From Hydrolagus affinis (taxonomy: Eukaryota): a DNA stretch of 64,000 bases. Shown here piece after piece: positions 1 through 64,000 of the stretch. Position 1 is the stretch's first letter. Each line of letters starts with the position of its first letter. The position numbers are program-made. Location: NCBI GenBank assembly GCA_012026655.1, contig JAAILG010001456.1, positions 1 to 64,000 on the forward strand. The letters are read 5' to 3'.

Positions 1-3000
1 ATTTATAAAGCCTAGTATCCCATATGCCTTCTTAACAGCCTTGTCTACCTGTTCTGCCACCTTCAACGAGTCACTAACACAAATCCCCAGGTCTCTCTGT
101 TCCTTCGCACCATTTAAAATCGTACTATCTAGCCTATATTGCCTCCCTTCATTTCTTCTCCCAAAATGCATTACCTCACACTTCTCTGCATTAAACTTCA
201 TCTGCCATTGACTATATTTTGTGGACAAAACGTAGCAGGCAATTACACACAACAGTGTCTCATAAACAATCGTGGATTAAAATGACCAATTTATTATTTG
301 GATCACTACAACAACAACAAAATTACATTTATAGAGTACCTTTCACGTTGGGAGGACTTCGCTACGTGCTGAACAGTCAGGTTGGAACCCGAGTAAGGGC
401 GAGGGGCAGGGTAGGGAGGAGGGGAGGGAGGGAGGGAGAGAGTTGGGAGGAGAGGGAGAGATTTGGTAGAGCAGCAGAAGGCACGGTCAAAGAGGAGGGT
501 CTTGGGACCGACCTTGAAGGAGGCAAGGGAGGGAGCGAGGCGAAGGGACTGTGGGATGGAGCTCCAGAGTGTGGGGGCAGACAGGCGAAAGCCTGTCCAC
601 CGATGGTAGGGCGAGTTGGGCGGGGGACATGGAGCAGGCAGGAGCCCGCTAAACGGAAGCCGCGGGGAGGTTCATAGAGGGACAGCAGGTCAGAGAGATG
701 GATGGGGGGGGTGGGGGCAAGGCCATGAATGGCCTTGAAAGTGAGGACGAGGATCTTGAATTTGATTCTCTAGAGGATGAGGAGCCAAGAGAGCCGGGTG
801 AGGGTGGGAGTGATGTGGTCGTGGATCCTGGTGAGGGAGAGAATACAGAGCTTTCCTTTGGAACACAGGGAGATCAATACTCCTCCCTGAACCCATAAAT
901 GTGTCTCCACTGCCACCCTACAATATAGTCTTTGATACAAAAAGCATTAACCTAAGATATCCACTAATAGGAGACGCCAGAAGGTTGCCTCTTTGCCTGC
1001 AGCAGGATTACAGAAGGATATTTTAAAATCTTACATGAAAAGGTATCTAACTCCACTCAAACTCTTTCAATACCAGCCTGCCCTAACTGGAGAACTCAGA
1101 CAGAATTGTGCACAAACTGGCAGATGATTACACATTCTGGTATGTCCTTCACTCCAGCCTTTGGATTCCATTTGAATTCTCACTAGACCTGATAAGCACA
1201 ATGTGTATAAGAACTACACACAGTCATTCATACATCTAAGCCCAAGTACCATTTTAGTTTACCGACTATGAAAAATAAAGGGTTAGTGTGATCACGAGCT
1301 TCATGTCTCAATGTTTTGCTATATTTATACAGCAAGTACATTACATCATTAAGTTACTTTACCTTGACAAACAATGCAAGTCGGTTTTCTTTGAAAGCGT
1401 AGAAGCTGAAGAGATGGTGCTGGCCGCTCTTTGTGAGAGGTACAAGGTTACCAAAGCAGTCAGCGTAAATAGGCTTGCCTTCCAAAACCTGTTGAGTCAT
1501 AAACAATTCATGATGGAAAACTGTACTTCTGATTTATCATTTTCCTTCTTTGATGTATTACTGTGCTAGAGCCACTGCAAAAAATCATAAAGCTCTACAT
1601 GACACCATTGCAAAAAAAAGTAATGCGATCAAGTACAATAGGATCTTAATATGAAACACTGCAGTGAACCTTCTCCTAATTTTCCCTAACATTACAATTT
1701 ATCCCCAAAATAATACATTTACTGAAAGCTCATTGAAGGGTATTCTGTCCTCATAGCTATGATTATTTTCTAATATTTGAACATTCATTTTCATAGTATC
1801 ACATGACACCACCAAAGTTGGTAAATTCACCAGTGAGATGGTATGCCTTTGAAAGTCTACTTTGACTTAAGGATACAGTCCAAAACAATTCTGTTCAGCA
1901 TTTTGTCCATCGTATTTAGTGAGCCATTAAAGGGATTTTCCATTATAGCATAATGCTGTATAGAATTTTTTCGCTGATGTTTCTTTTCAGTACAATATCT
2001 TCCAGCAGCAGAGAGGTTCAGCCCAGAAGACCTGATTTATATCTACCTATTTCCTATTGTTTTTGCTATGGGGCTGACCACAGCTCTGCTCTCTACAGCA
2101 AATCTCTTTAGTAGCATAATAAATGGTCCACTTAAACTGTTGAGAAACATATTTTTGAGCAAGGGCCGAATCGAGTTGCATTACTCTAATGGTCTCAGCA
2201 GCTGGATTTCAGAGTAAATCACTACAGTATATACAGCATACTGTGATCTTTGGTGGCAATTTGGCACAAGTTTTGCAGAAAACCATTATGAAAAGTATGT
2301 ACAGTTTTGCTATTAAAGACTCCATATGATTTTTATCCTCAGCTAATTTTTTCTTCTCAATTTTCTCTCTTTCTCTTCTCCTGAAGGCTTCTGCCTTCTT
2401 TTCTCTTCTATTGCCTTATAGTTCCCCTGGAACTTGCCATCTTTTGATGACGAATATTCTTATGTGAGCTTTAACAGTAAATCTTGGCAGACTGTTTGAC
2501 CCCAATAGCCATCACAGCAGTCCACGCAAATACGCTTTGCATTGGGTGTCTCTCTTCAGCAATTAGGAGGGTAACTGTGTCTATTTTGCCCCTTCATAAA
2601 TTGTGGAGTCTTAAGTCAAATGTAGTACCCCATCAATTGTAGTATCCCAGCTAGAGAATCAGTTTACTCAGTACTGACAATTGCTAACTGGTCCGTGCCA
2701 TTATTCACTTGGCCATGAGGACAGCAAGGATATCATATTTGCCAAACCCATTGAATATTCTTTCCATTACCTCAACATCTCTGCTCCTCGCAACTTCTGT
2801 GAAGTTTTCCTGTTGTTCCAGTGTTTTGTCCACTTTGTCATCTGTCATACAGAAGCACCTCAAACGAGCCTCAATGGGATCAAGTGATTTGGCAAACACC
2901 ACAAATTTGGCCATGTATGGTACACAGATAATCTCTCTGTACACTTGTGTGGCAAAGTTAACAGATTCCTGGATCTGTCGGCAGTCTATGAGCCAGAATC

Positions 3001-63000: not shown

Positions 63001-64000
63001 TGTTGTATTTGTAATAATAATGTCGTGATTTCAGGTATTGTTTTTCTTTCCAGGTGGAACAACCCCAGCCCAATGGGAAGATATAACGGGAACTACACCT
63101 TTATCATTTGTCAATGAATGTGTTTCTTTCACAACAAATGTATCAGCCAGGTAAGGATTTTCAAGAAGAAATTCATTCAAGCTTGCAATTGTTAACAAGT
63201 TACAGCATGAGCAAGCAACTTGCACTTGTCCATCAGCTGAGATGCTAAACCAAGATCCCATCTGCTTATTCAGATGGTATCCGTATCTTCTAGGATCCTG
63301 ACCAACAACCCTTTGGATAACTCCTTTGGGATTGGAGTGAAATATATGGTGATAATTATCACTGATGATAATTATGGTTTGACCAGAAGTTGGTGGAGTT
63401 TACTGTGTGTTGCCACCTTTGCAGCCACCACTTTCATTCCCGCTGTACAGAATATCAGTCAAATCTGATTAGCCTTCACTGTGTTCCTTTCAAAAGGCAG
63501 TGATATGTATGGATGTAGGATGTTCACTCCCAAACATATTGATAGTTCAGGACAAGTTTGATCACTATTATAAAAAATAATCCTTGCATTTCGAATAGCA
63601 TTTTCACGTCAGGATGATGTACTGTAAAGGGGTTATCACATTGCAAATTATCACATCATTTAGCACAATTTTCACTTCAATGTTCTGTTGTAGTCTCATG
63701 GTGACAGAATTGCATTTTCGCAAACCGAGCATTAACAATAAGGTTCTATTCCAGAGGACAAATGTCTTGAAGACTTGTTGCTCTTACCAAAGTGATCAAC
63801 AAGAAAATTCAGGTGCTTTAGTATTATGTGTTCAGTCTCATGCATTAAAAAAAATTGAGAGCATTAAAATGTACACAGCTCAGAAAATAAACCTTTTTTT
63901 TTTCAGATTCTGGCTCATAGACTGCCGACAGATCCAGGAATCTGTTAACTTTGCCACACAAGTGTACAGAGAGATTATCTGTGTACCATACATGGCCAAA

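What the first reader, a model, noticed from the sequence alone, without database searches (positions are those of the whole stretch)
2906..64000. Over 60 kb apparently perfect palindrome containing two divergent, 5'-less ANK2 fragments
Seen: the arms mirror at a constant sum of 66906 over 30.4 kb, so there is no net indel. All mirrored ORF translations are identical, and old repeats and homopolymer runs match wherever I checked. The centre holds a 100-N gap and only 171 bp of unique sequence (33418-33588). Both copies begin in an intron upstream of the GDDTMTG exon, and I found no ankyrin-repeat exons. Inference: zero divergence plus a gap at the axis points to one contig placed twice in opposite orientation, or a fold-back read artefact. 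A real, very recent or gene-conversion-maintained palindrome is the less likely alternative.
[Added by the scan's program, not by the reader: the finding's places include an assembly gap (unread letters, written N; its length is only estimated) at 33318 to 33417. Whether the letters on both sides are continuous or in frame is not known: test that first.]
Basis: partly seen in the sequence, partly recalled or inferred. Interest (0 to 1): 0.65.

Follow-up and report, generated by a model that had tools for sequence, protein, structure and literature searches.

The report
Mirror-image ANK2 duplicate, probably misassembly
Two perfectly identical, mirror-image copies of the back half of an ankyrin-2 gene meet at an assembly gap, which most likely means one stretch of a fish-like genome was assembled twice rather than truly duplicated.

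Summary
Positions 2906-33317 are the exact reverse complement of 33589-64000: 30412 of 30412 bases match, with no indel. The two copies are separated by a 100-N gap and 171 unique bases.

The start at 2906 only mirrors the window's end. The outer edge of the palindrome is therefore not visible, and about 61 kb is a minimum size.

Each arm carries ankyrin-2 exons that read outward from the centre. They begin at the GDDTMTG exon, and no ankyrin-repeat exon is present. The closest named relative is a horn-shark ankyrin-2b, so I do not take the window for human.

Best reading, about 0.85 in total: an assembly artefact. Either one locus is held in two contigs joined head to head, or a fold-back read produced the second copy. 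Supporting points:
- The left arm stops because its contig stops, not because the sequences diverge.
- Both contigs begin within 171 bases of the same point, beside a purine-rich tract.
- There are no differences at all.
- Neither copy has the gene's front half.

The arm edge falls inside a natural 16-base palindrome, which hints at a fold-back origin.

A real, very young palindrome (about 0.1) cannot be excluded without reads.

The parts
2906..33317 (.). Left arm of the inverted duplication. It ends at the assembly gap.
   Evidence: Exact reverse complement of 33589-64000: 30412 of 30412 bases.
33589..64000 (.). Right arm of the inverted duplication. It is cut off by the end of the window.
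1..2905 (-). Outward continuation of the left contig. Its mirror partner would lie beyond the window, so it cannot be compared. It carries the next ankyrin-2 exons.
   Evidence: tblastn matches at 2762-3001 and 1357-1491.
33318..33417 (.). Assembly gap of 100 N. Its true length is unknown.
   Evidence: Not filled or looked up.
33418..33588 (+). 171 bases present only on the right side of the gap. They run without a break into the right arm.
   Evidence: No other copy in the window. The middle 71 bases are not self-complementary, 14 of 71.
33418..33525 (+). Purine-rich, low-complexity GA/CA-type tract at the very start of the right contig.
   Evidence: 82.4% purine. Only 87 of 30305 windows of equal size in the arm are as skewed. 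Short direct-repeat families D1-D3.
33584..33599 (.). Natural 16-base perfect palindrome AAAATATCGATATTTT. The left contig's last base mirrors to 33589, three bases from its centre.
   Evidence: One of only 3 perfect palindromes with half-length >=8 in 30583 bases. Together these cover 50 bases, 0.16%. The hairpin is weak: -3.2 kcal/mol, z -0.22.
35833..35991 (+). Right copy, first exon present (the GDDTMTG exon). Coordinates are match limits, not splice sites.
   Evidence: 88.7% to residues 785-837 of horn-shark ankyrin-2b P0125.
44693..44806 (+). Right copy, exon.
   Evidence: 86.8% to P0125 residues 836-873.
45753..45860 (+). Right copy, exon.
   Evidence: 88.9% to P0125 residues 872-907.
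53385..53609 (+). Right copy, exon for the first part of the ZU5 domain.
   Evidence: 97.3% to P0125 residues 924-998. Pfam ZU5, E 5.7e-20. Best solved-structure match is Ankyrin-2.
56405..56509 (+). Extra, diverged copy of the second half of the ZU5 exon. Probably an alternative exon.
   Evidence: 42-51% to the ZU5 exon of the named ankyrin-2 proteins. Pfam ZU5, E 8.4e-5.
60425..60646 (+). Right copy, exon.
   Evidence: 74.3% to P0125 residues 999-1066. Pfam ZU5 end, E 1.6e-4.
61234..61470 (+). Right copy, exon.
   Evidence: 84.8% to residues 1133-1211 of bird ankyrin-2 P0022. Best solved-structure match is Ankyrin-2.
61609..61821 (+). Right copy, exon.
   Evidence: 88.7% to P0022 residues 1202-1272.
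63053..63151 (+). Right copy, exon.
   Evidence: 100% to P0125 residues 1189-1221.
63905..64000 (+). Right copy, exon cut off by the end of the window.
   Evidence: 96.9% to P0125 residues 1221-1252.
30915..31073 (-). Left copy, GDDTMTG exon (mirror of 35833-35991).
22100..22213 (-). Left copy, exon (mirror of 44693-44806).
21046..21153 (-). Left copy, exon (mirror of 45753-45860).
13297..13521 (-). Left copy, ZU5 exon (mirror of 53385-53609).
10397..10501 (-). Left copy, extra ZU5-like exon (mirror of 56405-56509).
6260..6481 (-). Left copy, exon (mirror of 60425-60646).
5436..5672 (-). Left copy, exon (mirror of 61234-61470).
5085..5297 (-). Left copy, exon (mirror of 61609-61821).
3755..3877 (-). 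Left copy, exon (mirror of about 63029-63151).
2762..3001 (-). Left copy, exon seen whole. It straddles the 2906 limit, and its right-hand partner is cut off by the window.
   Evidence: 97.5% to P0125 residues 1221-1300.
1357..1491 (-). Left copy, next exon. It lies outside the part that can be compared.
   Evidence: 95.6% to P0125 residues 1297-1341.

Best explanation
This is a false duplication made during genome assembly, not a feature of the chromosome. One stretch of the ankyrin-2 locus is present in two contigs. It runs from the intron ahead of the GDDTMTG exon outward for at least 33 kb.

Both contigs start at the same hard-to-assemble spot, a purine-rich low-complexity tract. The assembly broke there, and the gene's front half went elsewhere.

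A scaffolder then joined the two redundant contigs head to head across a gap of conventional length (100 N), because their identical ends attract the same linking signal.

Shown: the exact identity, the gap at the axis, both contig ends lying within 171 bases of each other, the composition of the tract, and the absence of the front exons.

Inferred: that the contigs are redundant copies, why the assembly broke, and why the scaffolder chose this orientation.

I give this specific route 0.55. Together with the fold-back route listed as a rival, an artefact of some kind gets about 0.85.
For: 1. There are 0 differences in 30412 bases, including 18 homopolymers of >=8, four dinucleotide runs and one trinucleotide run. 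The 95% upper bound on divergence is 9.85e-5. That is at or beyond the best value given for real human X palindromes, 99.99% (PMC8327919, passages).
2. The copies lie on one scaffold with a gap between them. That is one of the four primary characteristics of false duplications listed in PMC9516828 (passages).
3. [quoted passage not shown] Here both copies abut the gap.
4. The inner edge of the identity is set by the left contig's end, not by divergence.
5. The right contig starts only 171 bases further in, inside a tract that is 82.4% purine. Only 87 of 30305 equal windows in the arm are as skewed.
6. Gene logic. Both copies read outward and start at residue ~785 of a ~1990-residue ankyrin-2 (residue ~858 of the 1939-residue bird protein P0022). 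There were 0 matches to the ankyrin-repeat half at E<=10 with 2 of 2 full-length queries. A real structure would leave a conserved gene without its front half in both copies.
Against: - No reads, depth, k-mer counts or second assembly could be examined, so the core claim is inference.
- The copies cannot be two ordinary haplotypes. At 0.1% heterozygosity, the chance of 0 differences is 6e-14. The duplicate must therefore be of one haplotype, or lie in a homozygous run. How an assembler emitted two identical 30-kb copies is not shown.
- The published description of boundary duplications is of tandem copies with a gap. 'Inverted' occurs 0 times in the main text of PMC9516828 and of PMC8081667. 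Their figures and supplements were not seen.
- Plain redundancy does not explain why the left contig ends inside a 16-base natural palindrome. Such palindromes cover 0.16% of the arm. This was noticed after the fact.
- Real palindromes can have spacers as short as 77 bases and 99.99% identity.
Confidence: 0.55

Rival explanations
1. This is a fold-back artefact. A DNA fragment broken near the purine-rich tract snapped back on itself at the natural 16-base palindrome and was copied during library preparation, or a fold-back long read arose in some other way. The resulting molecule reads the locus outward, turns at the palindrome and reads it again on the other strand. The assembler, short of true reads across this spot, built or linked a second, inverted copy from it. 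Trimming and scaffolding then left the gap.
For: - The left contig's last base mirrors to 33589, three bases from the centre of AAAATATCGATATTTT (33584-33599). Only 3 such palindromes (half-length >=8) occur in 30583 bases, covering 0.16%.
- Because of this palindrome, the left contig's last 11 bases fit both the natural upstream sequence and a turn-back.
- Natural short palindromes and inverted repeats seed strand-switch chimeras during end repair (PMC10908179, passages).
- Fold-back reads make up about 0.55-0.6% of nanopore genomic reads and 'can lead to tangles in an assembly graph' (PMC12338684, sections read; PMC12870357, passages).
Against: - A fold-back join should be seamless. Here a gap and 171 bases of natural upstream sequence sit between the arms.
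- The arms are at least 30.4 kb, and at least 33.3 kb on the left, so a single fold-back read would need to exceed 60 kb.
- The hairpin is weak: -3.2 kcal/mol, with 73 of 200 shuffles folding at least as well.
- The palindrome was noticed after looking, so 0.16% overstates the surprise.
- Virtually no fold-back reads were seen in PacBio HiFi data.
Confidence: 0.3
2. This is a real, very young inverted duplication (palindrome) in the sequenced animal, in the germline or in the sampled tissue. Its centre lies in an ankyrin-2 intron. It may have formed by fold-back priming or template switching at the 16-base palindrome. The assembler could not cross the centre, which left the gap.
For: - It meets the working definition of a large palindrome: inverted repeats >8 kb with >99% identity (PMC8327919, passages).
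- Real spacers range from 77 bases to 358 kb, and arm identity reaches 99.99%.
- Short inverted repeats can start large palindromes in mammalian cells. I saw this only as the title of Tanaka et al. 2002 in the reference list of PMC12870357.
- Real palindromes are often missing or misassembled in references, so a gap at the centre would not be odd.
Against: - Zero differences in 30412 bases is beyond the best value quoted for known palindromes.
- The right arm is joined directly to natural upstream sequence, not to its mirror image. A simple fold-back palindrome is therefore excluded on that side.
- Both gene copies lack the front half. The gene would be broken unless a third, intact copy or a very large hidden spacer exists.
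[quoted passage not shown] They are not described as holding a truncated piece of a conserved gene.
- The arm edge is a contig end.
Confidence: 0.1
3. The two arms are the two parental haplotypes of one locus. A retained alternative-haplotype contig (haplotig) was placed next to its allele in the wrong orientation.
For: [quoted passage not shown] Anna's hummingbird was the exception. In the newer assemblies most false duplications lay on the same scaffold (PMC9516828, passages and table text).
- There is a gap between the copies.
Against: Haplotypes should differ. The chance of 0 differences in 30412 bases is 0.048 at a divergence of 1e-4 and 6e-14 at 1e-3. This works only inside a long homozygous run, and there an assembler would normally collapse the copies.
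Confidence: 0.05

Closest known systems
Same-haplotype ('homotype') false duplications at contig boundaries in vertebrate genome assemblies (PMC8081667; PMC9516828)
   Same: Identical copies of one locus lie on the same scaffold, each ends at a contig boundary, and a gap sits between them. The size is in the range of a long read. The result looks like a false gene gain.
   Different: The published description is of tandem copies from dovetailing contig ends. Here the copies are head to head: both contigs start at the same genomic point and run the same way along the gene. Depth and k-mer evidence, which the papers use to call such cases, could not be obtained.
Fold-back artefact reads and palindrome-seeded library chimeras (PMC12338684/PMC12870357; PMC10908179)
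   Same: Two halves map to the same place on opposite strands, and the turning point lies at a natural short palindrome.
   Different: Those papers describe single reads, mostly without sequence between the halves. Here the object is an assembled structure of at least 61 kb with a gap and 171 natural bases at the centre.
Large sex-chromosome palindromes kept alike by arm-to-arm gene conversion (PMC8327919, passages; PMC3723533 and PMC8981503, abstract starts only)
   Same: Inverted repeats of tens of kb with near-perfect identity and a short unique centre.
   Different: Those palindromes show >99% to 99.99% identity, have defined outer edges and hold protein-coding genes with testis-biased expression. 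This one has no differences at all, its edges are set by a contig end and by the window, and it holds a gene piece without its front half.
Palindromic amplification started at short inverted repeats (Tanaka et al. 2002, title seen only in a reference list; PMC5314454, search listing only)
   Same: A short natural inverted repeat lies at the axis of a large palindrome.
   Different: That is known from cultured or tumour cells. It predicts a seamless turn at the repeat and loss of the sequence beyond it. Here the natural upstream sequence is still attached to the right arm.

Membership tests
False duplication in an assembly (criteria of PMC9516828) | Gap between the duplicated pair on the same scaffold | tested here: met
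   100 N at 33318-33417, lying between the arms.
False duplication in an assembly (criteria of PMC9516828) | Half read depth for two-haplotype copies, or very low depth for same-haplotype copies | not testable with these tools
   No reads are available.
False duplication in an assembly (criteria of PMC9516828) | Discordant or spanning linked or paired reads at the join | not testable with these tools
   No reads are available.
False duplication in an assembly (criteria of PMC9516828) | Same-haplotype type: no haplotype-specific differences between the copies | tested here: met
   0 differences in 30412 bases. The k-mer multiplicity in the reads was not testable.
Same-haplotype duplication at a contig boundary (PMC8081667) | Duplicate lies at a contig boundary and is about one read long | tested here: inconclusive
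   Both copies abut the gap. The length is at least 30.4 kb, but the outer end lies outside the window.
Same-haplotype duplication at a contig boundary (PMC8081667) | Tandem orientation after scaffolding | tested here: not met
   The copies are inverted, head to head.
Large genomic palindrome (working definition in PMC8327919) | Inverted repeats >8 kb with >99% identity | tested here: met
   30412 bases at 100%.
Large genomic palindrome (working definition in PMC8327919) | Unique spacer bounded by both arms | tested here: inconclusive
   171 unique bases on one side and unread letters on the other.
Large genomic palindrome (working definition in PMC8327919) | Structure confirmed by clones or reads that span arm, centre and arm | not testable with these tools
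   No reads or clones are available.
Fold-back artefact (PMC12338684) | Two halves map within 200 bases of each other on opposite strands | tested here: met
   In locus coordinates the arms' inner ends coincide. The right contig runs 171 bases further.
Fold-back artefact (PMC12338684) | Turn lies near the midpoint of a single read | not testable with these tools
   No reads are available.
Palindrome-seeded chimera (PMC10908179) | Junction at a natural palindromic sequence | tested here: met
   The 16-base perfect palindrome at 33584-33599 contains the arm edge. The hairpin is weak.
Ankyrin-2 (ANK2) gene | ZU5 domain, and closer to ankyrin-2 than to ankyrin-3 or ankyrin-1 | tested here: met
   Pfam ZU5, E 5.7e-20. 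Solved-structure matches: Ankyrin-2 157.7 and 154.8 bits, Ankyrin-3 140.8, Ankyrin-1 <=120.5. The same order was seen. Nearly all named hits listed are ankyrin-2 or ankyrin-2b.
Ankyrin-2 (ANK2) gene | N-terminal ankyrin repeats | tested here: not met
   0 tblastn matches to residues <780 of P0125 or P0022 at E<=10 in the whole window. The window therefore holds only a part of the gene.
Ankyrin-2 (ANK2) gene | C-terminal death domain | not tested
   It lies beyond the last exon in the window (residue ~1341 of P0125).

The most novel reading that the evidence does not exclude
The palindrome is real. It would be a newly formed inverted duplication of at least 61 kb with arms not yet diverged (under 1 difference per 10 kb). 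It would be centred on a 16-base natural palindrome inside an ankyrin-2 intron of a cartilaginous-fish-like vertebrate. That would be a germline or somatic fold-back event caught almost at birth, in an autosomal-type gene rather than a sex-chromosome gene family.
Probability: 0.1. Interest if true: 0.6.

Novelty: not a real feature. Interest (0 to 1): 0.15.

Why it matters
If this is an artefact, the value is practical:
- The assembly would report two partial 'ankyrin-2-like' genes and no intact one at this place.
- That would inflate gene counts, break gene models and mislead searches for palindromes or gene gains.
- One arm should be removed, and the contig holding the front exons should be placed at the gap.

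It also shows that false duplications can be joined head to head. The two papers I read describe only tandem ones.

If the structure is real, it would be an unusually fresh example of how a short natural palindrome seeds a very large one. That could be tested directly with the animal's reads.

Tried and rejected
- Chance or repeat-family origin of the mirror symmetry: rejected. Identity is 100% over 30412 bases, while dispersed repeat copies are 77-85% alike.
- A seamless palindrome running through the centre: rejected for the readable part. 14 of 71 central bases match their own reverse complement.
- A direct overlap of the two contig ends, which would mean a false gap: none found. The only match is 11 bases.
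- A strong hairpin at the arm edge: not found. The z-score is -0.22.
- RNA genes as landmarks: Rfam gave only one weak tRNA-like match per arm, 30.7 bits against a threshold of 29. ARAGORN found 0 tRNA genes.
- Tandem arrays at the centre: the tandem-repeat finder listed 6 rows, none at 33418-33588.
- Species identification: three exon-by-exon protein searches gave no identical protein. The best named match was horn-shark ankyrin-2b at 89%. Those searches covered only proteins of up to 2000 residues, so longer forms were not seen.
- My own first recollection that the ZU5 exon looked like ankyrin-3 was wrong. The solved-structure search ranks ankyrin-2 first.
- A sequencing-adapter remnant in the 171 bases: considered by eye only and not tested, because no adapter library is on hand.
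- The purine-skew count used a wrong threshold. It was redone.
- Not used because they hold no eukaryotic chromosomes: genome contigs and the phage, plasmid and E. coli collections.
- No second assembly of this animal could be consulted.
- Paper supplements and figures were not seen. They may show inverted false duplications.
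Full report
**Observation**

I paired every position i with 66906-i. All 30412 comparable positions are complementary: 2906-33317 against 33589-64000, with no mismatch and no indel. 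The window has one N run, 33318-33417, of 100 bases.

The figure 2906 is only the mirror of the window's last base. Positions 1-2905 would pair with bases beyond the window. The outer edge of the structure is therefore unseen, and about 61 kb is a minimum.

The symmetry is not a repeat-family effect. Dispersed copies of the same interspersed repeats within an arm are 77-85% alike, while mirror partners are identical.

The arm holds 18 homopolymers of 8 or more, four dinucleotide runs and one trinucleotide run. All are identical in the two arms.

**The centre and the gap**

The 171 bases at 33418-33588 occur nowhere else in the window. One hundred of them lie opposite the N run and cannot be compared. 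The middle 71 are not self-complementary, with 14 of 71 matching.

The flanks of the gap share no direct overlap. The only direct match is 11 bases, produced by a short natural palindrome. No exon lies within 2.2 kb of the gap, so no reading frame is at stake. Continuity across the gap cannot be shown.

Two details stand out:
- The left arm stops because its contig stops at the gap, not because the sequences diverge.
- The right contig begins only 171 bases further in. Its first 108 bases are 82.4% purine, a skew reached by only 87 of 30305 equal windows in the arm (one search used a wrong threshold).

Both contigs therefore start at almost the same point of the locus, beside an unusual low-complexity tract.

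**What the arms carry**

I searched the exons one by one. I built no joined or spliced model.

- The open frame at 53349-53612 is a ZU5 domain (Pfam, E 5.7e-20).
- It matches solved Ankyrin-2 chains best, at 157.7 and 154.8 bits. Ankyrin-3 scores 140.8 and Ankyrin-1 scores 120.5 or less. A second exon gives the same order.
- Local tblastn with a bird ankyrin-2 (P0022) and a horn-shark ankyrin-2b (P0125) places ten matches on the + strand of the right arm, from 35833 to the window's end. Their mirror images lie on the - strand of the left arm.
- The left contig then continues outward with two more exons, at 2762-3001 and 1357-1491.
- Neither protein gives any match for its first 780 residues, the ankyrin-repeat half, even at E<=10.

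**What organism this is**

- In the GDDTMTG exon the closest named protein is ankyrin-2b of the horn shark Heterodontus francisci, at 89%. Sturgeon, frogs, lizards and mammals score 70-79%, and primates 56-70%.
- Another exon is 74% identical to the shark and 67% to primates.
- The ZU5 exon differs from the solved Ankyrin-2 chains at two of 80 aligned residues.

On this basis I do not take the window for human. It looks like a cartilaginous fish or a near relative. I did not determine the species, and I made no attempt to find the source record.

**Weighing the readings**

Zero differences in 30412 bases puts a 95% upper bound of 9.85e-5 on divergence. This has two consequences:
- Two ordinary haplotypes are excluded. 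The chance of no difference is 6e-14 at 0.1% heterozygosity.
- The arms sit at or beyond the best identity quoted for real human X palindromes. That is 99.99%, with arms of 8-140 kb and spacers of 77 bases to 358 kb (PMC8327919, passages).

Papers on assembly errors list a gap between duplicated pairs on one scaffold as a primary mark of false duplication (PMC9516828, passages). They report that same-haplotype duplications often sit at contig boundaries and are about a read long (PMC8081667, passages).

Gene logic points the same way. In a real structure neither copy would be joined to the gene's front half, unless that half hides in the gap or a third copy exists.

Against the artefact reading:
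- The boundary duplications described in print are tandem. The word 'inverted' does not occur in the main text of either paper. I could not see their figures or supplements.
- I have no reads.

**A new clue**

The left contig's last base mirrors to 33589. That is three bases from the centre of a perfect 16-base natural palindrome, AAAATATCGATATTTT (33584-33599). Only three perfect palindromes of this size or larger occur in the 30583 bases right of the gap, and they cover 0.16% of it.

Because of this palindrome, the last 11 bases of the left contig fit two continuations equally well: the natural upstream sequence, or a turn back into the right arm. The deciding base would be the sixth one past the contig end.

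Supporting literature:
- Natural short palindromes are known to seed strand-switch chimeras during library preparation (PMC10908179, passages).
- Fold-back reads make up about 0.55-0.6% of nanopore genomic reads and can tangle assembly graphs (PMC12338684, Background, Results and Discussion read; PMC12870357, passages).

Reasons for caution:
- The hairpin itself is weak: -3.2 kcal/mol, with 73 of 200 shuffles folding at least as well.
- A fold-back join should be seamless, yet natural upstream sequence is still attached to the right arm.
- I noticed the palindrome only after looking.

I therefore treat it as a hint towards a fold-back origin, artefactual or real, not as proof.

**Verdict**

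| Reading | Weight |
|---|---|
| Redundant contigs joined head to head | 0.55 |
| Fold-back read or molecule as the source of the second copy | 0.30 |
| Real, very young palindrome | 0.10 |
| Retained second haplotype | 0.05 |

The first two rows together give about 0.85 for an assembly artefact. Read depth, k-mer multiplicity and reads across 33000-33900 would settle it.

No other copy of this locus was examined.

Noticed in passing
window 56405-56509 (+), mirror 10397-10501 (-): About 2.8 kb downstream of the first ZU5 exon lies a short open frame that resembles the second half of that exon. It is 42-51% identical to the named ankyrin-2 proteins and matches Pfam ZU5 at E 8.4e-5. One protein without a source name (P0135) carries a stretch 88.6% identical to it directly after its normal ZU5 stretch. 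It is therefore probably a conserved alternative exon.
   Followed up: partly
window 54600-54666 (+), mirror 12240-12306 (-): A weak tRNA-like match (Rfam tRNA, 30.7 bits against a threshold of 29) that ARAGORN does not call. It lies next to copies of a ~100-base interspersed repeat, for example 34181-34287 and 54803-54911, which are 77-85% alike. This suggests a tRNA-derived short interspersed element (SINE).
   Followed up: partly
window 310-852, 57752-58280 and mirror 8626-9154: A repeat of about 540 bases is present in the left-only part and in both arms at 77% identity. The 57.5-58.2 kb copy holds long open frames in several reading frames and a pyrimidine/purine-skewed stretch (58090-58212). 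The element type was not identified.
   Followed up: no
window 33547-33570: A GC-rich palindromic motif (ATGCGCGCGCAT overlapping GCGCATGCGC) sits in the 171 unique bases, between the purine-rich tract and the 16-base AT palindrome. The stretch next to the gap thus holds several short palindromes within 60 bases.
   Followed up: no
window 35100-35117 (mirror 31789-31806) and 59288-59303 (mirror 7603-7618): These are the only other perfect palindromes with half-length >=8 in the right half (18 and 16 bases). They served as the background for the coincidence estimate.
   Followed up: yes
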